Source: Tubulanus polymorphus (Eukaryota; Animalia; Nemertea). Taken from it: 64,000 nt of DNA. Position 1 is the stretch's first letter. Every line of letters begins with the position of its first letter. Below are positions 40,930 through 56,970 of the stretch, in pieces. A program made the position numbers and the translations under genes. The notes under the pieces were generated by a model. It worked only from the letters and a program-made list of their open reading frames with translations. It was not told the DNA's origin and ran no database searches. Location of the stretch: assembly GCF_964204645.1 (NCBI RefSeq), contig NC_134028.1, forward strand, positions 26,904,345 through 26,968,344. Reading direction: 5' to 3'.

Positions 40930-43900
40930 ATGCATTTATTTTCAATCTGCGCAATAATTACTGTTATATCATCTAGTCACTGGATCACACTAACTACGAC
41001 GAGTAAGTTACCGATATTTAGTCATGAGTTGCTGTTATGTGTTTGATCTTGACAACTCTGAGCCTGGTTTCCCATTTTGTGAGTTTGATGTAGCTCACAG
41101 CTCCACGGAAGTTTGTATAACTCGTTGTAACTTTGATAAAACGCTGGGTTGCATTCAACTTTGAGAGTTTAATATAACTGTTTGGCTAATTCCACAGTTT
41201 AGGGCTATGAGTCGACGGGTTGAAGGGTTAAAACATTGATTAACTTAATTAAGACTTTATTTCCAACTTATTAACTAGGACCTGTTAAACTATTGGCTCC
41301 GATTAACAGTTGGTAAACTTAGAAGTCAAATTCTGACTCAGAAAACAGTGAAACTAGGTCCTAGTTATCAGCTAACACTGTTGTAAGCGTCACCAGCCCC
41401 GGATCTAATTGTGTGAGTAAATTTCACTGTTGTTTTGTTATGGATTTTAGCAAATACCTGCGTGGATAATGTAGCTCAGAAGTCTGATTGTCCAGAGTCG
41501 GCTGCCAGAGGTGACTGCGACACAGATACGACGCACGTACCTACTAATTGTCCACTATCCTGCGCTGAATCGTGCCGATGTCCGAGTAAGTTCTAAATCG
41601 GACATTTATAGATGCTTCATCAATAAAAGGTTTCTCTTATGACTTTCAATGAAATCCGTTTAGGTAACGTAGTCGGAGGTCAAGCTCAAGATAATAATGA
41701 CTGTAATTGTGCGCATTACATACACGATGGCAAACTAGAGAATGGAGAAAGCTGGATCAATAGTTATTGTCCATCATCAGTATATCGCAGGCTAAGTACG
41801 TAGGTCGGTTTTATATTAGCTGTTGTCACATACAACGATTCGCGTATGTTCTACTTTCTCTCTACTATTCGACAGTATTTCCCTGTCACAATCGACCTAT
41901 GCTGTCTTGAAACTGACCTTTACTCGCCGTACAGCGTCCCTGACAATCGTAACCGATGTACACCTGCTTTTCTAGATTAAAATCATGACTTACATCTGAA
42001 CCCATTCTAGGTTCACCTGTAATCATGATAGGGGTTGCAAAATAGGCCTACAGTCTGATGACTGAAATGCTAAAAGATATTATAACATGACAAATTCTGG
42101 TTTGCTTAAACAAGAACATTCAATTTTTCGATATACTTAATTTTCTATGTCCTATTTCTAAAAATACTCGAGAACGCAGCCGTGGTATGACGTAGATATC
42201 ATATTTTGTAGATATGCCATGCCCTGATCCACCGGCAATACCGTTGACTAATTACACCACGACTTTCGGCAATAAATGGTTATCTGAAGTTATCTATAAA
42301 TGTCAACCAATAGCAGAAACAAACCTTACCGCAAACGATAACGGCAGACGTATTTGTTTGCGCAATCAGACCTGGCTATTGCAGAAAGACCACGGAGAAA
42401 TCAATTGTTACCGTAAGCATTCATTTGTTTGTTTGTTTGTTTGTTTGTTTGTTTGTTTGTTTGTTTGTTTGTTTGTTTGTTTGTTTGTTTGTTTGTTTGT
42501 TTGTTTGTTTGTTTGTTTGTTTGTTTGTTTGTTTGTTTGTTTGTTTGTTTGTTTGTTTGTTTGTTTGTTTGTTTGTTTGTATTGTTCTGTGTCGTTTCCC
42601 AATTTTTAAGACCTATTGGATTGTTCATCTAAACTTGGCGATTGGCTTAATTAACTACCGGGTATTTGATGATCATCTTTCTATATTCAACATATCATAC
42701 ATGTCTGTATTGCACCTCGACACTGACGAGGACTGCGGCTAATGCGCGTCATCATTTTTAGTTAAAACCTGCACAGACGCTCCGGATACCATCGACAATG
42801 CCACGTGGTCTGTGAGCGTACCAATCAACGAACGTGGTTACGAACACGGGACCGTCTTAACCTACACGTGCTTACCCGGATACGAAGTCATATCCGGTGA
42901 CGTCACTAGAACGTGTGAAGCTAACGCGACGACTGTGATGTGGACTGATTGGACGCCACCTGTATGCGTGAGTACGTACTAAATAGAAAGATAAGATTAT
43001 AGTATTAATCGATGAATTGTAGTCGGGAATTAGGATGATATTTTTGTACGGCGATTTAGAAAAGGATTGCGGTGCAGCCTCGAGTATAGCTCACGGTACA
43101 GTCGACTTCGATATGACCACCTACGATGAAATAGCCACATATACCTGCGACGAAGGCTACATTTTCGAAAATGAAAACGACACAAAAAGATGCGACGAAA
43201 ATGGAAAATGGATCCCGGATTTAGTTTGTCTCGGTAATTATTCACACCGGATACTGTTAAATGATTATCTTATGGCCGCGGAATGTACAAGAAATTCTAA
43301 AGAAAATAATTGATTTTTGTCACATGATGTTCAGATCATATAACCATCATAATGATCATTAAAATGATAGATTTGTTTGTGTTCGATTATAATTTATTTC
43401 TAAATTCAATATACAATTCATCTTTTCGATACATCGTCGATATGTAATGATCGTCCAAGCTAAAAACTGTATTTACATACGAGCTATCAGTTTACATATC
43501 AATAGAATTATGATTTATGTCGTATCAGGTGTCGATTGTGGGGAACCGCTGTCGTTAGAGTTTGCGACGTTTACCTCGCTATCGACCAGATACCCAGCCG
43601 TGGCCACCTATACATGTCAAAGTGGTTACAAGTTGAAGAACAGCGCCAACGATAAATTATCCTGCGCCGAAAATGGCACGTGGGAAGGAGAGAAACCGGT
43701 TTGTGAAGGTGAGAGAATTAATCATTCAACGTTTTGAAAGGCGCCGGTATGTGTTACGACTAAGTAGCGATATTAAAATAACGATCACTCACCGGGTGTC
43801 GAACCCTATATTTGTGTCATATACATTCGTGATTAAGTCGTTCGTATATGCGTAACACGATACTAGATATAGGTTTTAAAAACGGGTTGAAAAAAGAACA

Positions 43901-44889
43901 AAATCAAAGATGCAAAATGACCAATTTCATAGACATTTCACGGATAGTAGAAACAACAGCCGCTGTTTCACACTTTAATCGTAGCATCCATTATTGTATC
44001 ATCTTTTCGTGATTTTATGCGACAAGCCCTTGAATCCCCCTATACAGCATATCAGCTCTCTACCGACCGCTTCTATCAGACTCTCTACCGACCGCTTCTA
44101 TCAGACTCTCAACCGACCGCTTCTATCAGACTCTCAACCGGCCGCTTCTATCAGACTCTCAACCGACCGCTTCTATCAGACTCTCTACCGACCGCTTCTA
44201 TCAGACTCTCAACCGACCGCTTCTATCAGACTCTCAACCGACCGCTTCTATCAGACTCTCAACCGGCCGCTCTTATCAGACTCTCAACCGGCCGCTTCTA
44301 TCAGACTCTCAACCGACCGCTTCTATCAGACTCTCAACCGACCGCTTCTATCAGACTCTCAACCGACCGCTTCTATCAGACTCTCAACCGGTCGCTTCTA
44401 TCAGACTCTCAACCGGTCGCTTCTATCAGACTCTCAACCGACCGATTCTATCAGACTCTCTACCGACCGCTTCTATCAGACTCTCTACCGACCGCTTCTA
44501 TCAGACTCTCAACCGACCGCTTCTATCAGACTCTCAACCGGCCGCTTCTATCAGACTCTCAACCGACCGCTTCTGGTTACGCTATTTCGGAATAGTTTAA
44601 AATGTATTCTGATCGTGACGAATGCGGTGGAACAGTATTAAAAAATCGGTAAAGACGATCCATAACCTGCCTCCAGTATATGAATGAAAGTGATGCACTG
44701 TGGTTATGTATTATTTTTTCAGCGAAACCCACTTCCGAAAAAAGTCGACCGGTATTGATTTATATCGGTGTCGGTGTCGCGGTCGGTGTAGTTTTGATCA
44801 TTATAATAACAGGGGTAACAATACACTGTCGTATAAAGCAGCGCGCGAAGAATCGAATAGCAAAAATACAAGTGGCACCATCCGCCTGA
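40930..44889 (+). CDS. Type I membrane protein: signal peptide - ShKT - ShKT-like - 4x sushi/CCP - TM - short tail (isoform A, ~423 aa)
   Basis: Exons 40930-41002 (MHLFSICAIITVISSSHW, signal-like), 41451-41585 (CVDNVAQKSDC-PESAARGDC-DTDTTHVPTNCPLSCAESC, ShKT Cys spacing), 41664-41795, 42212-42412, 42762-42971, 43060-43233, 43529-43708 (the last four each have the sushi C..C..C..W..C pattern), 44723-44889 (IYIGVGVAVGVVLIIIITGVTI TM). All introns are phase 1 GT-AG. Confidence 0.88.
42424..42580 (+). repeat. (TTTG)n microsatellite in a sushi gene intron
   Basis: Direct reading, ~39 units. Confidence 0.97.
44050..44575 (+). repeat. 25-bp minisatellite (CCGACCGCTTCTATCAGACTCTCAA), ~21 copies, in the last intron of the sushi gene
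   Basis: Direct reading; explains the 25-aa periodic ORFs. Confidence 0.95.
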
Positions 44890-44990
44890 ATGTACGTGTG
44901 GTCTGAGGCCCCGAGCAGCCTGCGATTGGTGGAGTGAACTATCCGATCTGAACAACCGAAATAATAGATATGTATATATTTATTTTTCAG

Positions 44991-45160
44991 CGATCCAACC
45001 AGTGACGGAAGACAGTAATAACCAAGCTATTTATATCGGGGTTGGGGTCGGAGTTGGTGTGGTGGTGATCACAGCAGCCTCTGTCGGCGCGTATTTCGGC
45101 ATCAAGCATCTGAAAATGATAACTAAAATCCAAAAAATAAACATCGCGCCGGTGGCTTAG
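44991..45160 (+). CDS. Alternative terminal TM/cytoplasmic exon B of the ShKT-sushi gene
   Basis: Acceptor tatttttcag|cg, phase 1. Encodes AIQPVTEDSNNQAIYIGVGVGVGVVVITAASVGAYFGIKHLKMITKIQKINIAPVA*, paralogous to exon A. AATAAA follows at ~45168. Confidence 0.75.
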
Positions 45161-45471
45161 AATGGAAGAATAAATACCGTAGAACCGACTTCATTCAGAT
45201 CCATCGAGCGATGCGGAATTCACTGATTAACGGGAAAAAATTATCTTACATACATTACGGCTTGATGGACAGTTGCAATGAACAATGAGTTTGTCGGCAG
45301 ATGTAAAAATAAGGGGTCCGGGGTCTTTACGTGGGCGCCGCGTCCCGTTGTTCTTTTGCGATACCCCGGACCCACGCCTGAGATCAAAATCCGGATTGAA
45401 CTGATCTGAATCGAGCGGTGAAATTTGATCATACCTTAAAGTGATGCACTGTTTATGTATTATTTTTTCAG

Positions 45472-45572
45472 CGAAACCCACTTCCGAAAAAAGTCGACCG
45501 GTATTGATTTGCGTGTCTGTACAGATGATTAACTGTTATGAATACTCGCTGTGTTATACTGACTGTAAATAA
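45472..45572 (+). CDS. Putative third terminal exon C (no TM) made by partial duplication of exon A
   Basis: 45439-45510 is a near-exact copy of 44688-44761, including the acceptor. Reads AKPTSEKSRPVLICVSVQMINCYEYSLCYTDCK*. AATAAA overlaps the stop codon. Confidence 0.35.
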
Positions 45573-45938
45573 ACTCTAATGCTGTTTTTGATTGTATAAA
45601 TAAAATATATTATATTTTTTACACAACAACAAATTGATGACGTAGTAATATTTTAAATGCCCGACACAAAAGTATTAAATAAGGTAAACGTTTTGTTTAT
45701 ACGCTTGAATAGAAAGATGTGAATCATTTGAATAAATGTTTTTTACAAAGTTTAGTCTAAAAACAGTTCAACCGTAAGAAAAACTGTAGTAGCGGGGATT
45801 AATTCTACATCGTTTCATTTTACGCCTAGTGACATTTTTAATCGACGACAGTTTTGTAATGAGTAAGTCAACCTCGCTCGACAGCGTGTGTGAATACAGT
45901 TACCAGTCTCTTCAATTCATCACTTTTTAATCAACCTC

Positions 45939-46215
45939 TTCGAACCTGATGGCATCGAGACTACCTTGACCCGGAAACCTACCTGATTGGTCGAGTGCGC
46001 AGCTTAGAGATGATGTCATTATGAACCAATCAGAAAAGCCTTTTTATTTCAGCCTGGATTTTCCCATTTGTAATTTATCCGTGAAATCTGCTACAGCGAT
46101 TATGGTTCCTTGCGCAGGTAGCCCCTGCGCACTCGGTATAATAATGGAAGGGTTTTGTGCCGTGTCTAAGTCTAGCGATGCTGCGATCAGGTTCGAACCC
46201 CTGCCGTAGGAGAAT
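45939..46215. mobile_element. MITE family B copy between the convergent 3' ends of the sushi gene and AOS-LOX
   Basis: ttcgaacctgatggcatcgagac...gatgctgcgatcaggttcgaacc; internal gcagcttaga-gatgatgtcatta..accaatca shared with the 59151 and 62280 copies. Confidence 0.7.
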
Positions 46216-46387
46216 ACCATTTCAATGGGGGGGGGGGGGGGGTATGTCTGAGGAGCGGTTCATTTCACAAAGTATCGACGATCAGTTTTTGTAAGGATGG
46301 CGACTAGGGGGTTGTCGAGTATAGAACAGCAGATTGAATGTGTTGAATAGTTCGGATGAAAACACTGAATCCTCCTCAGTGTTATCA

Positions 46388-49300
46388 TTAAATAGCGATA
46401 CTACTTGGAACCCGCTCTGGTAGTAAATAAACGTACGGCACTTCTCTAGTTTTATTCCGTTCGTGTATCGTGGCGCTTATTTGTTTTACGGCTTTACTGA
46501 ATTTCTTCATCAAATCCCTCGGTTCCAGATCGGTGAAATAATCATTCGGATATTCACCCAGAAATATCTGAAATAAAAAACGAATTTGAGTTATTTCTCG
46601 ACTTGAGAACAAGCTCTTTAGATAGATGATGAGACAAATTACCTCTTCCGAACTGTATTGCGATAGCGGATAAACAGCGGCTAATGCATTAGCACTGAGC
46701 AGCCAATTAGGTAGTGATTCTATAATTAGATCCATATTGACCACGCCTTTCTCTGTTGGTGGAGGTCGCAGCATGGTCAGTGGATAGTTGGGTACGAATG
46801 CCATATAGTCCATTTGATTGAAGTTGACGGCTGCGTGTTGACACGATGCTGAGAATATCAACATTGTTATCCACTCGTCTAGTAACCTCTTCGTTTCAAA
46901 TCTTTCAGAAAACAAATCATTATTAAATCATAAAGCTACAAATTCATTTCATTACTCAAAAGTTCCCAATAAAGTAATTTAAGATGCGTCAGTCTATTTA
47001 TTAATCGTTACTGAAAATACTTGACTGACAGTTGAGAATTCTTTAAATTCCAATCTAACAACTCAAGACATGTCGGAACTCTTCAGCTTTATCCAATCTA
47101 ACAACTTACTTAGAGGCGTTTACCAATTTTGGTTCTATATAGCCAAACAAAAAACCTAATGCCAGTGCACGATCATATTTCTATAGCGAAACTTTTAACT
47201 TAAGACCTGTCAGTCTTAGCTGATTTTGGTTCTAGAGGCAATGTAACTACCATAACCTGTCATTTAAGACCATTTCTGGACATTCTGTTGTTAGAATACA
47301 AACCGTTCTGGGATTCCATGGTCCTCATGGCCTTCGTATTGACGGAATCCATTTTCGCGAAGGTCAGCCAGCCAGGCCTGTATCTCTTCATCGGCGACTA
47401 CATCATTATCTGATTTATAAAACAATGACGTCATCTCGACGACGAATGCGTGAATGGCGTCCCAGATCAGGTAGCCATCTTCCCGGAAGTGGTAAAACGG
47501 AAGTTTCTCGGGGTCGTCGACTCCGCGATTTTTCATATCTTGTTTGAGGAAAAGTTCGCTGATGTTAAATCGTGAATACAGTTTTGATATATACTGAATG
47601 TGGCCACCTCCTATAATCAATAAATACATCTTTAATTCAATGATATGAATAAACTGAGTTTTACACAAGAATCTAATCCGAAAGTTCACCAAACAAAAAC
47701 CATAACGCCAACATCTATTATCAATGAATTTCATACTTTTCGAATTATCACTACTTCTGCGGGACGTTTTACTTCCATCTAAATCACTAGTTATCTCGGA
47801 CTAGAGTGTTTGATTAATTAATGCGCGATTTATAGTTCCTTGTTGCCAGTTTAAAGATGTGTTAATGGACAATACTCAAATAACAAAAAAAAATATTCTT
47901 ATTTTTTCCTGATCCCTTCTGTTTTGACACGCCTTTTACCAAAAGATGCTTTTGGAAAATTTTATTCCACCCCTTCGCTCTTCTATTTTTTCTTAGAAAT
48001 ATCCATGCTCTAAGTAACAACAACAAAAGGCCTCAAAGAGATATTTCTAAGAGAACTCACCGCCGATCGCCATTGTATTATCGACGACCTTCCCTTCACC
48101 TGTAAGCGCAACTCGACCAATCGTATTGATAGCGATCGTGTGACGCATGTGTGGAATCAACATCTTGAATACTGGATGCGCAGACGGTAACTGTCTCATA
48201 GTCGCTACTGCTATAGCTTCTATTATGAAATGAGTCCTGGATAAATGATAGTACATCTGATGTATCTGACTATCGGCGCATTTCACGTGTATCTTAGCCA
48301 GAGTCCAGTCATCCTGGGAATCAGAGGGAAGGAATACGGGGTTGTTCGGTCCTGGTGTTTGCTGTAGTTGTATCGCTATCGGTACTAAGTGTCCTGATTT
48401 CCTCACGTACAGTAACGCGATAGGTTCGGCCACGTATCGAGTCTCACCGGACACGTTATAACGCGGAATACCGGTCAGATCACTGTAGTCCAGAATATAC
48501 ACGTGACCATCCTGAAATTACATTCATCGTATTTACATATCATCCACGAGATTGGCGTAAACAGATTGCTCATAGCCATTATCTATTTGGCTAAGAAATT
48601 GACAGCTTGTTTGTCTTTTCTGCTAAGCTCAAAAATCGACCTGGCCAGCCACCTATTTACCCTGTATTTTATTTAAAATCATGATCAAGCTAACAATAAC
48701 AAACCTGCCAGTAATAGAAATGAACTGATTTCAAATCTTAAGTGAACCGCCGATTATGAGAAAGAAAGAAAGGTATCATTTTTCCATGTATGAGGCGGCC
48801 CATATTGGATCAAGCGAAGTTTTGATCAGATTTCTGAACAAATATTTTTAGATAGTCAAAAATGGACGCTTTAACATGAAACAGGTGACGAATCAAAAAT
48901 GTCAAATATCAAAATTTCGTCGATGACACAAAAAAAGTCATTCTCACCTTGATTTCTTCATCAAGAGATTTACCTCGATCCAGAAATGGTTTCAGCATAC
49001 CATCATCTACAGCGAGTTTATTCGGTAGTTCCGTGCATCGTCGCAGGTGATGCGGGTTCGTTCCGGTCAGAAAATGGCGTCCATATTCCGCGTCATCCCA
49101 GAAATGATCGTAGAAATAATCGTAGACGCCTTCCGATTTTTGACAGATGTTCGCGAAATCTCGATAGTCTTTCAGCGACGTGAATCCGTGCGACATCAAC
49201 GCGCCGACCGTCCTGTATCTTAATCTTGCTTGTCCAAATAGTAGAAAGAAATCTCGTGATTTCTCGTCGTTGAATTGTACATCTCGCGGGAGTTCGTTGT

Positions 49301-50832
49301 GTTTGTCGTGGTCGATAGATGACGACAGCCCGGGTAGATGGCGCCACGGGAACTGTTCACGGCGCCATTGAACTTCAAGTTTTCGGAAATTTCGTAAATG
49401 CGCGTCTTTTTCCTGGTAGCACAGTGACGCTATTGAAAATTACAAGTTAAGAATCGTTATATTCTATACACGTGCTGGTAGCCGAAGTCTTCGTAACTGT
49501 CACGTAACCACATCATAGCCACCCAGCTGGCTATATGCCCACATCATAGCCATATTCAGATAGCTATGTCCACTTCATAGCCACTCAGCTGGCTATGTCC
49601 ACATTATAGCCATACTCAGATAGCTACGGCAAGATCATAGCCATCTAAACATACCAGATATCGAAACTATGACTTACCGTCTCCTTTCTGAAATATGGCG
49701 TTTGTTCTGAGCCAACTGTAACAGGGGAATTCAACTGACTTCTTACGGCTACAGTCGAACACTATGACGTAATCGATAGCGTGGTCATCTTGACCACGTC
49801 CTCGTAAACTGACCTCTATAGCCCTGACTTGACCAACGTCTCGTTCATTCGACACCTTCAAGAATTAAGATTACTATTATATTTGGCGAACCTACGAAAC
49901 ACACATTTATTTTCGAGCATCCATAACTTTTTATTTCTGGTCCAGGCCATCCTCCGCGTTTCGTTCGATATATTATATTCCTTACTCATACCAGGTCTAC
50001 TGACTGGTTCTATCTATATCCACACCTCGTGGTCTCCTATCAGTTGCATCCCATTCCTTACATCTTTTGAGCCACAGGGAAAAATAGGTATAACTTGGGA
50101 TATGAACAATCCACGCAATATCATTGAACCGATCAATTTATATTGAAATACACTATACCGCCACGCGCGTGGCTGTTTCAGAAAAAATGAAACTGAATAT
50201 CTATTTGTCGATGTCGTATGGTCGTATCGTCAGGACAGCGTCACGAAAAATCAATTTATTGCGACGAGAAAAAACCGCGGATGGTGTTTAGATCGCGTGA
50301 GAATTTCTAAACTAACAACATCTCAAGTGATATTTACCTTATAAGCATCGACTCGTCCTTTCTTGAAGTCATCGTGGAACGTATGGTCCAGTTTTATAGA
50401 CTTAGTAACAGCCTGCGTACCTAAACAGAAGAACAAGAAAACTAACTTGACAGAAGAGAAATAACGCGAGATCATTGTTAAATGGTATACTTGTATCTTG
50501 CATCTGCAGATGATAACTAATGACTGATACCAATCACATTGGACAATGATTAAGGATTTTAGAGCCCATTCCATGATACTCGAGGCTTTGAATTGATCCA
50601 TTCACATTTCAAAAGGACTTCTTTTAAGGACTTCAAGAACTTCTATGAACCCAATTATTGTAATGTTTTAACGGCGTCAAAACAATAGCGTCTAGAAATA
50701 TAACATGTTTTATTGATAAAAGTAGATGGTACCGTTGAGCGATATAAAGAAATCCCTATCGGTCCCCGCTGAACCCATATCAGCCGTTTTAACCAGTAAG
50801 ATATAATCGGAAATATCGAAATTTCCGTCATC
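46388..50832 (-). CDS. PLAT + lipoxygenase catalytic domain of the fusion, exons 6-13
   Basis: All expected non-heme iron ligands are present: two His in HLSRTH, His and Asn in QHAAVNF, and a terminal Ile (PSSIAI*). Gly at the stereocontrol site (INTIGR). Confidence 0.95.
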
Positions 50833-53800
50833 CGTTAAACAGATTCTGGACGTGGCTTGTCGTGATCTCTGGACAGCTGGATAGATCTAGTTTAGAAACA
50901 AAAAACAATATACGATAAACGACATTCAATATACGACACGCAATACGTGATAATAACAACACATTTTTCAAGGTCGGTTAAAAGTTTGACTCAAGACGTA
51001 AAAGTAGTTCATTTCCAATGGCCTCAAATTTTTAGCTGAGAACAATTTCGTGCTTTTACTCTGAAACATGCGATAGTTTTGATTCAGTTTCTGTAAAGGA
51101 AAAGCTTCATAAAAAGTAAATCGTTGAATATGATCGAAAATTAATGGTTGACTTACCTTTTCTCGAGCATAAGAAACTGACGTGAACGAAAATACAGAAG
51201 CTGGTTTATGATAAGTGAGGATTGGCGGCCGGTTAGCCAGATCAAACGTCATCGGTTCGCTAATATCGAGCGGGAGAGGGGTAGTCAGTACGACATCCGC
51301 TAGGGGACGCCACGGATGGAATTCGGAATTCCATTCTAAACCGACGTTGAAGTAATCATCCGCGTGACCTTCACGGATCTGAATTTGAAGGTCGAGGTCG
51401 ATCGACCCGTCTGTTTCAAAGCGTTTGATGAGTTCGTTATTGAGGTAGCTTTCATCGCGGTTCTTGTGTTCATCGCGAACTTTACGATTCCTTCGAATTG
51501 AGATGAAAATATAGATATATGAGTCGTCATGATGCTATTGTATAACTGTCATGGGAAAGCCCAGCAAGATGTACCAAATCATAGGGGCGATAAATCTTAC
51601 AAAAATTACTTTGTATCCCCGACAAGATAATATCTAGGGGGGGGGGGGCAATGCTTGAAAGGTAGGGTGAGGATAGGCGGACCTGTCCCCCTCCCTCAGC
51701 AGGGATTCGATTCAGATACCATTGCTAGGCTCAGCCACGGCACGAAACCCGACCCGACTAACCCGAACCGGTTTTATGCTACAACAATTTGTGGATTCGT
51801 TGAAAATACTTTCTTCGAATTTTAAAGCTGAGCTTTGTTTGTTTAAAAGGTTAATACAACATGGACACCGTATTGAGGCCGGTTCACATCCACTACACAT
51901 ACATACCACGGTTCTCGTTGATCTTGCTCATCAGTGAGACCCGATTCAACATCGAGATCTTTCGGCACGAATCGGAATCTGACCGTTCTTGTCATTCCAT
52001 CATTAGCCTGGTAAGAGTAGGTTGTGTGACAGTGGTAGATCATCTTAGCGAATGAATCAGGAGCTCGTCTGTGACTGTCTACTATAGATCTATACCTTAA
52101 ACACACAACATCTATTCATATCAATATCTCTGACTGATATTGAGTATATCAACGCATTCTTCACAGATACGATTAACATTTTAAAGTCCATTTTCATCAC
52201 AGTAATGAAATAATTCATGTACGCGAGTAGTAGAAATACTGAACAGTTATTTGTGGATGCGAGAAAAGAAAAAGAGAACTGTAGATGACGCATTCTCGAG
52301 AAAAACAAAACTGAACTATTTAATAATCAGGCCACTCGAATGTGATTTAAAGAAGAGAGGTTACATTAGTGGAGTCTCCATTAAAATGTTTGTTTTGCGT
52401 CACACTGCCGAGTCTTTGTTTAAATGTGAACAAATCTAAAATAAAATCCTCTTTTTTCGCAAAAGATAGCTGGAACCCTAGCTCTGGCTCGGTCGAAAGC
52501 CGAGCTCACTCACAACCCTAACCCTAGGTGGCTCGTTTCCCTAACCCTAACCCTAGGTCACTCGTAACCCTAACCCTAGCAGGATTCGAACCCGCGAACT
52601 CCAGTATGCCAGCCGAGCATGCTAACCACTAGGCCACTGAGCTGTAGTGATTTGACCGGTTTGTAAATATGTCCAGTCCTTGTTGTGACCAGTCAAGTGT
52701 GGTCGACACTAAAGGTACCCCTCGTATAAAATAAACAATAAACGATGCATATGTAGTGATCGTCGCGTGTGAATAAACCGCGGAAGAGACGATTCCCATC
52801 TCAAAATCTAGACGAAAAGTATCGATGAGTTTTCCACTGATCTATGGCAGGGTTCGAACTTGATCGCATTGATTCGACTGGCTTGAATCTGTATATCAGT
52901 AACAGGATTGAGCGTCGAGTCGTTTAATCTAACATCGTATAAAGCCTATGAAACTAACGCGAACCTAGTTAACAATTCGCTTTTTCAAATGACCATTATA
53001 TTATCGATATTTGTATTCTTTTCAAAACACGATTTATGATTAAACGATTTAAGATTAATGAGATGCTATCCATATACGTTTCAGTATAAACACGGGTATG
53101 GATTATATCGTTAATTACGTATGCGCACCAGACAGACAGACAGACAGTGGTTTTATCTATTTTAGGTTCATGTGGCAAGCTGTCACCGTATATAATCAAG
53201 AGTAGATGGCGAACTATTTACGAGTCGAAATATAGAAATAAATATCTACATATAACAAATCTCTTTTTATTGTATAATCGATGAATTTTCTAACCGAGTT
53301 TGAACTGAAGTCGTTTACTGTGCGACTGACATTTTTGTTCACAATATTAACAAGTTACAGTTCTCTCTCCGTGGAATCTTATGAATCGGTCGTGTTCAGG
53401 TCATAATACGGAAATAGTCATATATTTTCAGTAGCAACGCATTAGAAATGTATGATTTTTACCTGAATGGATATGCAAGGCAATAGTTCTTCATTTCTTC
53501 TTCATTTTCGACCGGAAATGCATCGGCAAAATCACCGAACTCGCGCAGACAGATGAGTGAGTTAGTGGAACCAGTAGAACAGATCAGATCAAAAGAGCTG
53601 ACGTCATCACTGACACCATCAGTGAACCTGATCGTAAATCCGCGCGAGCATTTAACAGCATCGTGTTCAGGACTATCCGACGAGAAACGACCTCTTAATT
53701 GAAATATCTTACCCTATAAACATCAAACAATACAATATTCATTTACATTCATTATTCATCTTGATAAAAATGTCTAAAGGTTTCCTTTTACTGATCGAGA

Positions 53801-56800
53801 TGGCGGGAACCCGGGGGTTACTGATCGAGATGGCGGGAACCCGGGGGTTACTGATCGAGATGGCGGGAACCCGGGGGTTACTGATCGAGATGGCGGGAAC
53901 CCGGGGGTTACTGATCGAGATGGCGGGAACCCGGGGGTTACTGATCGAGATGGCGGGAACCCGGGGGTTACTGATCGAGATGGCGGGAACCCGGGGGTTA
54001 CTGATCGAGATGGCGGGAACCCGGGGGTTACTGATCGAGATGGCGGGAACCCGGGGGTTACTGATCGAGATGGCGGGAACCCGGGGGTTACTGATCGAGA
54101 TGGCGGGAACCCGGGGGGTTACTGATCGAGATGGCGGGAACCCGGGGGTTACTGATCGAGATGGCGGGAACCCGGGGGTTACTGATCGAGATGGCGGGAA
54201 CCCGGGGGTTACTGATCGAGATGGCGGGAACCCGGGGGTTACTGATCGAGATGGCGGGAACCCGGGGGTTACTGATCGAGATGGCGGGAACCCCAGGGGT
54301 TACTGATCGAGATGGCGGGAACCCGGGGGTTACTGATCGAGATGGCGGGAACCCGGGGGTTACTGATCGAGATGGCGGGAACCGGGGGGTTACTGATCGA
54401 GATGGCGGGAACCCGGGGGTTACTGATCGAGATGGCGGGAACCCGGGGGTTACTGATCGAGATGGCGGGAACCCGGGGGTTACTGATCGAGATGGCGGGA
54501 ACCCGGGGGTTACTGATCGAGATGGCGGGAACCCGGGGGTTACTGATAGAGATGGTGATTTGAATGAAACAGATAAATTCGCGTATTCGGAATATGAAAG
54601 CCGGTGATTGTTAATATAACATTATACTATTTCCTTTATTGATAGATATCGATATTGTTTTGTAAAGACGGCGGTGACACGTGTTTATAAGCCGCAACAC
54701 GACCTCGATCAATTCTTGTCACTTTACATTTCTACAAGTGACAAGAAAAAAACGTATTTCTATAGTTTGATTTATTAAATCAATCACAATCAGAATTCAG
54801 AGAAATCTACACAAACATGACGTGAAAAATACGACACAAAATCACATTAAAATATTGAAATGGAATGGAATTTTTGCTAAAGTAGTTAATGCATTTCTGT
54901 CTAAACCCGATGCACTCGGCAAAACGGTTGTTTCATCAAAACACAAAACACGTTTTTTCATAAAACGTTTTGAGTAAAAGTTTTACTCGCAAACGATGAA
55001 AACGTTCAGCGCACGAGGCATAAAAACGATCTTTCTTTACCGTGTGCGTAAGGGCTAAACCACTGTCCTGTAGTGATGTCAGAATTGATTGACGAGTTAT
55101 AGGAAGCTACAAGTTTATTGCATACATTTACTCCGCTAAAATTGTGTTTAAAAGTGATGCTAGAATACTATTATGATATACATGTATTTTATATTTCCGT
55201 GCCTTGTTAGCTGTCACCCTGATTTGACTGAAGTCCAATGCATCAACTCCATAAACATAGGACTAGTTTTCTAAGCCTTAGCTCGAATATATAAATGAGC
55301 GCTCATCGAAACCTACCTCCGTGAAAAAATCGTCTTCAGGAAGTTCTGGATGTTTTCGAATCGTCACGAATCCAGAAACGCCGATTCCTGATCGATGAAC
55401 GGGTCGCCGACCCGAGGCAGCTATTGCCGAAAATGCGACCTTCCATTTATAGGATTCGAACCATAAATTCAAACCACTTCCGAAACCGGGTTTTTGAAAC
55501 TGAAATATTATCATAAATCAACGATAAAGGATCAAATTTGGACGCGAAGAAAAAATCGATGCACTTCAGTTTTGATGGGTAAAACGTGAAAGATGAATAT
55601 CGTATATTTGAGAGTTCCCTGTTTCTGAAGCATCCTACTTTACGTGCTTCGCTATTGTTTGCGTAAAACTAATTTCTACTCGACTAAACGCACAGAAAAT
55701 ATGTGACAACTATTTTTTAGATTGCGAAAAATATTCTAAAAAAAAAATCGATTTGTTCGCCGTTAAAAAGTACCATGTGTTACAATGATAAACAATAGTC
55801 GTCAGTTTGGGTTCGGTTTTTTTTAATATAGTATTTAATTAAGTGAAATGTATACGGAAATCATCATTAAAAACGAGCGAACTGTAGCTTTTTGTGAATT
55901 TCAACCGGTAGCTCGACTTAAGGACAATACTGAGGCGTTTCATGCAGAAGAAAGGTTTCCTCCTTGGAGCTCCAGTTAAAATAATGATTATTATCATACT
56001 ATAATCATTATTTATTATTATTACAGTTGTATCAAATAATCATGAATACACGATAGGAAGAACACAGCATAGACTCGGCCTATAGCAGTCCGTGTGTATT
56101 CGGTAAACCGTTGAAGGCGGTCGAATAATAAAAAAAGATTTTCTTCTGAAAAGCAAAGCATTTTATAATGTGTAAACAATCTGATTCTGCAGGTCTGGAC
56201 GCTGCCGCTATAAGTAGAGTGTCAACTGTATCAAAATGTTCTGATTCAATCGATTTCGAATAAACTCCTTAAAAAGCTCTTCGGTATGTACGTAAGTTTG
56301 CAAGCATTTGGCTGAACAAACAACCTGTCGTTATTTCTATCATAAAGTCTAAACAAAACCCTATATACTATGTATATATATATGCACGTAACAGTAGGTT
56401 TTTGTTCAATCCTGGAAAGAGATGCGAAAAAATCGATCGAATTATTTTGGTAGATTTAATCCGATCAAAATGACCTTTTGAATAATTGCGTTTTCGCTAT
56501 TGCGGATACTCGGGTCATGAACTTTATCATTATGACTAATGGAAGTCGTTCTGTCAAATGAATCCCAGTTGATTCAAAATAAACGAGTTGATTGTTAATT
56601 GTAACTCATATATTGGGAAGTGTACCCGAGTGTATCCCCGAACAACAAGACTCTCTCCAAAATAAATCAAAGCTAGGGAAAACATGGAAACACGGAATGA
56701 AACATATTTGACTTGGAAACAAATCCCAAAACCATTTTTTCTAATAAACGCCCACGATACGGAGAAATTCTCGGAAACATGTTTCTGTTTCTTCCTGTTT

Positions 56801-56970
56801 CCCTACGTCATGTGTGTTTGACATGTTTCCGTGTTTCGTGTGCGTTTGACATAAACTCGTACCTTAAACTGTGTTTCAGATTTCAGTTTGAAATCCTCGT
56901 CGCCATTGATTTCTCTATAAAACTCGTCAGCTCTGTTGATCCACGACGAATCGCTGCCATTCGATGACAT
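46388..56970 (-). CDS. Catalase-related allene oxide synthase-lipoxygenase fusion protein (AOS-LOX type), 13 exons, ~1052 aa
   Basis: Exons in transcript order, all GT-AG and phase-consistent: 56970-56863, 55499-55317, 53713-53463, 52095-51907, 51490-51157, 50886-50733, 50420-50338, 49855-49678, 49429-48948, 48511-48061, 47610-47304, 46901-46643, 46567-46388 (3159 nt). The N-terminal domain resembles coral cAOS: WINRADEF, GRRPVHRSGIG, RRAPDSF, ESGLTDEQ, LQIQIRE, WNSEFHPW, AREKIYPAVQRSR. PLAT domain: VKTADMGSAGTD...FPCYSW. LOX domain: WTLAK, HQMYYHLSRTH, INTIGR, QHAAVNF, C-terminal PSSIAI. Confidence 0.95.
50833..56970 (-). CDS. Catalase-like heme domain (cAOS/cHPL-type) of the fusion, exons 1-6
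   Basis: Distal His in RRPVH (codon 55397-55395). Proximal R-x-x-x-Y (REK|IY) spans the 51157/50886 junction. Collinear with the recalled Plexaura cAOS sequence. The domain boundary is approximate. Confidence 0.9.
52471..52711 (-). mobile_element. Same tRNA-like/TTAGGG repeat (copy 2), in AOS-LOX intron 3
   Basis: Reverse complement: tagtgtcgaccacacttgactggtcac...cagtggcctagtggttagcatgctcggctggcat...gggttcgaatcctgctagggttagggttacg... Confidence 0.75.
53787..54555 (+). repeat. 30-bp GC-rich minisatellite (TTACTGATCGAGATGGCGGGAACCCGGGGG), ~25 copies, in AOS-LOX intron 2
   Basis: Near-identical units with a few single-base indels or substitutions. Confidence 0.97.

What the first reader, a model, noticed from the sequence alone, without database searches (positions are those of the whole stretch)
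46388..56970. Intact catalase-lipoxygenase fusion with a re-tooled heme pocket: candidate new oxylipin-forming enzyme
Seen: a complete, phase-consistent 13-exon ORF with a catalase-like domain, PLAT and a LOX domain retaining all iron ligands. The heme domain keeps the distal His and proximal Arg/Tyr, but several pocket positions differ from coral cAOS. Established: biochemically characterised animal fusions of this type come from corals (Plexaura/Gersemia AOS-8R-LOX; Capnella HPL-LOX), where the heme domain converts the LOX hydroperoxide to an allene oxide or to aldehydes. Inference: this is a probably non-coral member whose heme domain does different chemistry (peroxidase/catalase, lyase, isomerase, or a non-catalytic role), i.e. 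a possibly undescribed two-step oxylipin pathway in one polypeptide.
Basis: partly seen in the sequence, partly recalled or inferred. Interest (0 to 1): 0.85.

Follow-up and report, generated by a model that had tools for sequence, protein, structure and literature searches.

The report
Ribbon-worm lipoxygenase fusion with catalase-like pocket
An intact 13-exon ribbon-worm gene joins a lipoxygenase to a coral-type heme domain that keeps its heme-binding residues but has replaced the threonine and asparagine found in the coral enzymes, so it likely handles fatty-acid peroxides as a peroxidase rather than making the coral allene oxide.

Summary
Confirmed: a 13-exon minus-strand gene (56970-46388, all introns GT-AG, 1052 aa), identical to RefSeq XP_074649222.1 of the nemertean Tubulanus polymorphus, annotated only as '5-lipoxygenase-like'. 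It aligns end to end with coral AOS-8R-LOX (3dy5), and the modelled heme domain matches cAOS (1u5u, Z 46.4, 1.6 A). LOX iron ligands and heme His71/Arg353/Tyr357 are kept; Thr66 is Val70 and Asn137 is Ser143.

Non-coral fusions are not new: they are annotated in lancelets, a brachiopod, bivalves and a leech, and pocket changes are common. What stands out is that only 1 of 16 named bilaterian fusions examined, this one, keeps both active sites, and it is the only one of 7 doubly intact fusions lacking both Thr and Asn.

Best guess (0.4): an R-lipoxygenase feeding a slow hydroperoxide-dependent peroxidase. Rivals: slower AOS/HPL (0.3), since coral Asn137 is dispensable; or a decaying heme domain (0.22), since a paralog keeps an intact heme site with a broken LOX. 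No transcript bridging the two domains was found; a spliced close homolog supports one LOX intron. The scan noted related fusions in algae, bacteria and a giant virus before, not this gene. New variant of a known kind.

The parts
56863..56970 (-). Exon 1 (aa 1-36), start codon at 56970
55317..55499 (-). Exon 2 (aa 37-97): R68, V70 (55400-55398; cAOS Thr66), distal H71 (55397-55395)
53463..53713 (-). Exon 3 (aa 98-180): R106-F107-S108, S111 (cAOS K107), S143 (53578-53576; cAOS Asn137), F156 (cAOS L150)
51907..52095 (-). Exon 4 (aa 181-243), heme domain
51157..51490 (-). Exon 5 (aa 244-355), heme domain, proximal R353 (51165-51163)
50733..50886 (-). Exon 6 (aa 356-406): proximal Y357 (50883-50881), R364, linker and start of PLAT; this one exon bridges the heme domain and PLAT
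50338..50420 (-). Exon 7 (aa 407-434), PLAT
49678..49855 (-). Exon 8 (aa 435-493), PLAT
48948..49429 (-). Exon 9 (aa 494-654), LOX; helix alpha-2 with F554/F558 aligned to the Phe/Tyr pair of 5-LOX, not to the Tyr/Arg of 8R-LOX
48061..48511 (-). Exon 10 (aa 655-804), LOX: iron ligands H743 and H748, Coffa-Brash G786 (R-specific predicted)
47304..47610 (-). Exon 11 (aa 805-906), LOX
46643..46901 (-). Exon 12 (aa 907-993), LOX: H929, N933
46388..46567 (-). Exon 13 (aa 994-1052), C-terminal Ile ligand and stop; preceded by a 75-nt intron that is in frame and stop-free

Best explanation
The gene encodes one 1052-residue protein with a catalase-fold heme domain, a PLAT domain and a lipoxygenase, in which the lipoxygenase likely makes an R-configured fatty-acid hydroperoxide and the heme domain likely consumes it as a slow hydroperoxide-dependent peroxidase (giving hydroxy, keto or epoxy products) rather than as an efficient allene oxide synthase. 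Shown: gene model, fold, iron ligands, heme His/Arg/Tyr, and the Val70/Ser143 substitutions. Inferred step 1: the LOX is active, R-specific (Gly786) and probably not a copy of coral 8R-LOX (Phe558 where 8R-LOX has Arg). Inferred step 2: heme is bound through Tyr357/Arg353. Inferred step 3: without the Thr66 hydroxyl, and with Ser108 beside Arg106, His71 takes the catalase-type orientation, which favours two-electron O-O cleavage; loss of the Asn and of the aromatic pair (cAOS F144/W145 -> L150/I151) widens the pocket and slows turnover, so high catalase activity is not expected.
For: All six heme-binding residues (R68, H71, R106, R353, Y357, R364) are kept although the heme domain's end branch is long (1.23 against a median of 0.74), whereas 13 of 16 named bilaterian fusions lack the His/Arg/Tyr core. 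This points to selection for heme binding. It is the only one of 7 doubly intact fusions with neither Thr nor Asn. Solved relative 3e4w has Leu-His and RFS where this protein has Val-His and RFS; that 3e4w is an organic-peroxide-dependent peroxidase is recalled, not read. [quoted passage not shown] A LOX-linked catalase acting as a hydroperoxide peroxidase with keto-epoxy products exists in Fusarium (Fg-cat; PMC11719350 passage). LOX domain model matches 8R-LOX/5-LOX at Z about 51.
Against: No activity was measured. PMC5617202 (whole text read) says N137 is not important in catalysis per se, and wild-type Capnella cAOS splits H2O2 about 30-fold faster than Plexaura T66V, so Thr/Val does not simply set the chemistry. 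I recall that T66V keeps about 14% AOS activity (paper not held). The domain keeps 49 of 60 family-conserved positions, at the low end of intact homologs (0.81-0.93), and several ligand-less lancelet domains keep 0.87-0.93, so an intact fold says little about catalysis. If Thr-His is needed for reacting with fatty-acid hydroperoxides at all, the domain may be near-inactive on them. No RNA evidence joins heme and LOX exons.
Confidence: 0.4

Rival explanations
1. It is still an allene oxide synthase (or a hydroperoxide lyase) fused to a LOX, only slower or tuned to another hydroperoxide.
For: His, Arg and Tyr are kept and the fold is cAOS-like. N137 is dispensable (PMC5617202). Ile185 matches cAOS Leu176; P69 and F156 match cHPL P65/F150 (PMC5617202). 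T66V keeps part of its AOS activity (recalled).
Against: Thr and Asn are lost together, with further pocket changes (H103->F107, N105->S109, F144->L150). 5 of the other 6 doubly intact fusions keep Thr and 5 of 6 keep Asn. F156 and P69 are common in the family, so they do not indicate a lyase.
Confidence: 0.3
2. The heme domain is decaying or has become non-catalytic, and the protein works as a plain lipoxygenase; the hydroperoxide is processed by the paralog XP_074652621 (P0012), which has Ser-His, Asn, Arg and Tyr but a broken LOX.
For: 15 of 16 named bilaterian fusions lack one site or both. In this gene the heme branch is long (1.23) and the LOX branch short (0.47); in P0012 it is the reverse (0.74 and 2.33). 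The two are sisters in both trees with moderate support (91/88 and 88). P0012 lacks LOX helix alpha-2, has Lys for the Asn ligand and lacks the C-terminus. A third paralog, P0010, has an intact LOX and no heme ligands.
Against: All six heme-binding residues survive a long branch. P0012's LOX defects could be partly gene-model errors (not checked; no genome held). Branch lengths next to a long sister branch are unsure.
Confidence: 0.22
3. The domain has regained true catalase activity and removes H2O2 beside the LOX.
For: Val-His and RFS resemble the catalase pattern (catalase residues recalled; 3e4w seen). Atlas feature neighbours at 0.93-0.94 are catalase-domain clusters.
Against: The catalytic Asn is lost. 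The Pfam Catalase family does not hit. T66V gives only weak O2 evolution (about 10 per second, inferred from PMC5617202).
Confidence: 0.05
4. The fusion is an annotation artefact or a pseudogene.
For: No listed RNA run holds this exact gene, which the tool says is no evidence either way.
Against: Phase-consistent GT-AG model identical to RefSeq; exon 6 itself spans the heme-PLAT boundary; full-length collinearity with 3dy5; indels avoid exons; spliced homolog.
Confidence: 0.03

Closest known systems
Plexaura homomalla cAOS-8R-LOX (PDB 3dy5, 1u5u; also Gersemia and Capnella AOS-LOXa)
   Same: Same domain order and full-length alignment (E 5.4e-219); heme-domain model Z 46.4, rmsd 1.6 A; H67/R349/Y353/R64/R102/R360 equivalents, LOX iron ligands and Coffa Gly kept.
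   Different: T66->V, N137->S, K60->A, K107->S, F144/W145->L/I, H103->F; LOX alpha-2 has Phe where 8R-LOX has Arg; 31% (heme) and about 40% (LOX) identity; nemertean host.
Capnella imbricata cHPL-8R-LOX
   Same: P65 and F150 equivalents (P69, F156).
   Different: cHPL keeps T66 and N137 (PMC5617202); its YS176-177 corresponds to SI184-185 here; P and F at those sites are common family states.
Small catalase-related protein 3e4w/3e4y (recalled as MAP2744c, an organic-peroxide-dependent peroxidase) and Fusarium Fg-cat
   Same: Catalase-fold heme proteins; 3e4w has a hydrophobic residue before the distal His and an RFS motif as here; Fg-cat acts as a peroxidase on the product of an adjacent LOX (PMC11719350 passage; title in PMC6085349).
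   Different: Stand-alone proteins, not fused; 3e4w is distant (E 0.0028); Fg-cat's pocket residues were not seen.
Annotated AOS-LOX-like fusions of Branchiostoma, Lingula, Potamilus, Mya, Helobdella, and Tubulanus paralogs XP_074652621 and XP_074651699
   Same: Same architecture; this gene groups with the lophotrochozoan copies in the heme-domain tree (96/93).
   Different: None of the 15 others examined keeps both the heme core and the LOX iron ligands.

Membership tests
Catalase-related heme domain-LOX fusion (cAOS/cHPL-LOX family) | N-terminal catalase-fold domain + PLAT + LOX in one ORF | tested here: met
Catalase-related heme domain-LOX fusion (cAOS/cHPL-LOX family) | Distal His, proximal Tyr and Arg, heme-binding Arg64/102/360 | tested here: met
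   H71, Y357, R353, R68, R106, R364
Catalase-related heme domain-LOX fusion (cAOS/cHPL-LOX family) | One spliced transcript carrying both domains | tested here: inconclusive
   Only intron 9 (LOX) is seen removed, in a contig of a close homolog; nothing bridges the heme exons; the RefSeq model agrees
Coral allene oxide synthase (cAOS) proper | Thr before the distal His (Thr66) | tested here: not met
   Val70, codon GTT
Coral allene oxide synthase (cAOS) proper | Distal Asn137 | tested here: not met
   Ser143, codon TCT; not essential per PMC5617202
Coral allene oxide synthase (cAOS) proper | Allene oxide formed from 8R-HpETE | not testable with these tools
   needs enzyme assay
Coral hydroperoxide lyase (cHPL) | F150 with YS176-177, on a T66/H67/N137 background | tested here: not met
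   F156 present, but SI184-185, V70 and S143
Typical catalase | Val-His plus distal Asn; Pfam Catalase match | tested here: not met
   Val-His present, Asn absent; no PF00199 hit at E<=1; catalase residues recalled
Lipoxygenase | Iron ligands His, His, His, Asn and C-terminal Ile | tested here: met
   H743, H748, H929, N933, I1052; ligand list from PMC5793058
8R-lipoxygenase | Coffa-Brash Gly (R-specificity) | tested here: met
   G786; rule stated in PMC3925239
8R-lipoxygenase | Arg on helix alpha-2 that binds the substrate carboxylate (role recalled) | tested here: inconclusive
   An ungapped register gives F558, as the Tyr of 5-LOX; HMMER puts a one-residue gap there against 8R-LOX. PMC5793058 says LOX specificity cannot be predicted from sequence

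The most novel reading that the evidence does not exclude
This is a natural version of the Thr66Val/Asn137 double change in the only bilaterian catalase-LOX fusion found here with both active sites intact: a one-polypeptide, two-step oxylipin pathway in a nemertean whose LOX makes a non-8R hydroperoxide and whose heme domain turns it by peroxidase-type chemistry into a product not known from corals, while its two paralogs have split the ancestral job into heme-only and LOX-only halves.
Probability: 0.3. Interest if true: 0.7.

Novelty: new variant of a known kind. Interest (0 to 1): 0.45.

Why it matters
The characterised animal catalase-LOX fusions that I found in the papers read are from corals, and each change of pocket in this fold has given new chemistry (allene oxide, aldehydes, epoxides). 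This gene is a natural test of the proposal that Thr-His marks fatty-acid hydroperoxide chemistry, and it is the best candidate found here for a working two-step fusion in a bilaterian, where most annotated 'AOS-LOX' genes appear to have lost one site. That pattern also warns against reading 'AOS-LOX' labels in mollusc and lancelet transcriptome studies as allene oxide synthesis. It is one cheap expression experiment away from an answer.

Tried and rejected
No genome is held for this window, so paralog positions and gene models could not be checked. No RNA holder was listed for the gene. X7 and X10 gave nothing laid; X8 and X9 gave only short, divergent pieces outside the exons. No joint across the heme-domain introns was seen. 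The word-indexed homolog search was insensitive: 3, 2 and 3 hits. My first two exon joins had donor sites off by one and missed exon 6; corrected. Alignment A3 paired the heme domain with fragments that turned out to be LOX pieces and was discarded. NCBIfam gave nothing relevant. K60, K107, L150F and A65P were rejected as diagnostic because most non-octocoral homologs differ there too. Whether V70 and S143 are fixed in other individuals could not be read: those rows were cut or outside the stretch laid; each codon is two bases away from Thr or Asn, so a single base error is unlikely. No second copy lies in the window. Not held, so not read: Tosha 2006, Mashhadi 2016, Gao 2008, Gao 2009, Oldham 2005, Teder 2015, Teder 2017 (BBA), Brash 2014 and the 3e4w paper. 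Complex prediction was not used because heme cannot be the scored partner.
Full report
Observation. Reading the minus strand in three frames and fixing splice sites gives 13 exons from 56970 to 46388. All 12 introns are GT-AG, phases are consistent, and the 3159-nt CDS encodes 1052 aa with no internal stop. The product is identical to P0001, which is RefSeq XP_074649222.1, 'polyunsaturated fatty acid 5-lipoxygenase-like', of the nemertean Tubulanus polymorphus. So the gene is already in public annotation, under a name that ignores its N-terminal domain; Pfam finds PLAT and Lipoxygenase but not Catalase.

Is it a real, maintained gene? DNA of other individuals covers the stretch 45800-53770 (X1 and X5 in 30 of 30 bins). 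None of the 12 indels shown lies in an exon (exons are 36% of the stretch; 30 rows not shown). Of the 40 substitution rows shown (208 not shown; the shown ones end at 49236, so only LOX exons are covered), 13 are exonic: 7 synonymous and 6 not, against 22% synonymous expected (p = 0.012). A contig of run X6 (library not on record) matches pieces of exons 9 and 10 at about 86% with 525 letters between, exactly the spliced distance. This is a spliced close homolog, not this allele, and it says nothing about the heme exons. No contig bridges the heme domain and the LOX. Exon 6 itself carries the proximal Tyr, the linker and the first PLAT strands, which makes a chance join of two genes unlikely.

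Anatomy. The best solved relative is Plexaura AOS-8R-LOX, aligned over residues 9-1052 (3dy5, E 5.4e-219). AlphaFold2 on a 40-sequence alignment gave mean pLDDT 89.7. The heme domain matches cAOS 1u5u (Z 46.4, rmsd 1.6 A, 356 residues) and the PLAT-LOX part matches 8R-LOX and 5-LOX (Z about 51). LOX ligands H743, H748, H929, N933 and I1052 are intact, and G786 sits at the Coffa-Brash position, predicting R-specificity (rule in PMC3925239, passages). On helix alpha-2, F554 and F558 align without gaps to the Phe and Tyr of 5-LOX, where 8R-LOX has Tyr and Arg (the carboxylate-binding role of that Arg is recalled). The position of oxygenation is therefore open; PMC5793058 (passages and section 2.1.2) says it cannot be predicted from sequence.

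Heme pocket. Against 1u5u, with the residues named in PMC5617202 (whole text read, supplements not): H67->H71, Y353->Y357, R349->R353, R64->R68, R102->R106 and R360->R364 are kept; T66->V70 and N137->S143 are changed, each two bases from the coral residue. Also K60->A64, K107->S111, A65->P69, L150->F156, N175/L176->S184/I185, H103->F107 and F144/W145->L150/I151.

How unusual is that? A phmmer scan of 1.84 billion representatives (best 150 listed) and cluster look-ups show fusions in Branchiostoma, Lingula, Potamilus, Mya, Helobdella, Acropora, a protist transcriptome, a gammaproteobacterial cluster and unnamed records, plus two more in Tubulanus. Mollusc transcriptome papers use the AOS-LOX label routinely (listing; PMC7098371 passages). 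Being non-coral is therefore ordinary. Of 279 proteins held, 91 had a heme-domain hit spanning both ligands; one (P0019) was dropped for a long insertion and 26 remained at 80% identity. Ten of the 26 keep His, Arg and Tyr; before the His they have T5, F2, V1, S1, A1, and at the Asn site N6, S1, D1, H1, K1. Pocket variation is thus common, and stony corals vary at T66 too (PMC5793058). K60 and K107 are not conserved outside octocorals, and F150 is the majority state, so these are not diagnostic.

What does stand out comes from scoring both sites in 29 fusions that I picked from those held, one or two per cluster. Among the 16 named bilaterian rows (3 Tubulanus, 2 Lingula, 8 Branchiostoma, Potamilus, Mya, Helobdella; some redundant, some partial models), 3 keep the heme core, 8 keep the LOX ligands, and only this gene keeps both. 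Among all 29, 7 keep both; the other 6 have T, T, T, T, T, A before the His and N, N, N, N, N, H at the Asn site. This gene is the only one lacking both. The sample is limited and is not a census.

Paralogs. P0012 (XP_074652621) has Ser-His, Asn, Arg and Tyr but a LOX lacking helix alpha-2, the Asn ligand and the C-terminus. P0010 (XP_074651699) has an intact LOX and no heme ligands. P0001 and P0012 are sisters in both domain trees with moderate support (91/88; 88). End branches are 1.23 (heme) and 0.47 (LOX) for P0001, and 0.74 and 2.33 for P0012. That mirror image is what division of labour after duplication would give, and it is the main evidence for the decay rival. P0001 keeps 49 of 60 positions conserved in 8 intact homologs (those score 0.81-0.93 on the same test), but four ligand-less lancelet domains score 0.87-0.93, so fold conservation does not show catalysis. 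Against decay, all six heme-binding residues have survived the long branch.

Mechanism. Step 1 (inferred, likely): PLAT-assisted membrane binding and iron-dependent dioxygenation give an R-hydroperoxide. Step 2 (inferred): the hydroperoxide reaches a Tyr-ligated heme. In cAOS, T66 and H67 lie within about 3 A of the hydroperoxide in docking and N137 at 5 A (PMC5617202). I recall from Tosha 2006 (not held; title seen) that the Thr66-His67 bond turns the His relative to catalase, and that T66V gains modest catalase activity and keeps about 14% AOS activity. With Val70, and Ser108 beside Arg106, His71 would take the catalase orientation. The distant solved relative 3e4w shows Leu-His and the same RFS and is recalled as an organic-peroxide-dependent peroxidase. 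Fusarium Fg-cat, next to a LOX gene, is a hydroperoxide peroxidase with keto-epoxy products (PMC11719350 passage; title). I therefore put 0.4 on slow peroxidase-type turnover, 0.3 on slower AOS or HPL, 0.22 on a decaying or non-catalytic domain, 0.05 on true catalase and 0.03 on artefact. Against my reading, PMC5617202 reports N137 as not important in catalysis per se, and wild-type Capnella cAOS, which has Thr, evolves O2 about 30-fold faster than Plexaura T66V.

Literature coverage. Ten searches listed no paper on a nemertean lipoxygenase or on a natural Val-His catalase-LOX fusion; 'nemertean' + 'lipoxygenase' gave one unrelated paper. Most of the key enzymology is in papers that were not held, including the 2016 review of the Thr-His motif, which may already list natural exceptions. 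Seen as passages only: PMC10864609, PMC11719350, PMC10813956, PMC8124189, PMC6085349, PMC13049297, PMC3925239, PMC7098371. No supplements were read. The scan's own notes hold nothing like this sequence but several related fusions in algae, bacteria and a giant virus (unchecked AI notes).

Verdict. The gene is a new variant of a known family: it works like a coral catalase-LOX fusion in architecture, and it fails the cAOS membership test at Thr66 and Asn137. New chemistry is a fair bet but unproven. Interest 0.45.

Noticed in passing
P0012 (XP_074652621) and P0010 (XP_074651699), Tubulanus polymorphus: Two paralogous fusions with complementary losses: one keeps the heme site and has a broken LOX, the other keeps the LOX and has lost the heme ligands.
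   Followed up: partly
P0008, P0013, P0015 (Branchiostoma) and P0007 (Lingula): Fusions annotated as AOS-LOX that lack both the heme ligands and the LOX iron ligands, yet the lancelet heme domains keep 88-93% of family-conserved positions, suggesting a maintained non-enzymatic role.
   Followed up: partly
window 42196-45535: A plus-strand gene with Sushi (CCP) domains (E 1.5e-10 at 43393-43734) ends just downstream of the fusion, tail to tail; a hydrophobic transmembrane-like exon appears twice (about 44760-44890 and 45030-45160), with a related piece near 45430-45500.
   Followed up: partly
window 53788-54555: A 30-bp minisatellite, 25.5 copies at 98% identity, inside intron 2.
   Followed up: no
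window 52514-52641: Telomere-like AACCCT repeats beside a high-copy element in intron 3 (depth about 3000 against 40 in X1); it looks like a tRNA-derived SINE by eye, untested.
   Followed up: no
window 46568-46642: The last intron (75 nt) is in frame and stop-free, so its retention would insert 25 residues into the LOX C-terminal region.
   Followed up: no
P0016, P0028 (unnamed, about 1900-1950 aa) and P0004 (1825 aa): The same heme domain occurs behind about 850-900 extra N-terminal residues in unnamed fusions, and in a plant protein with AMP-binding and carrier domains and no LOX family listed.
   Followed up: no
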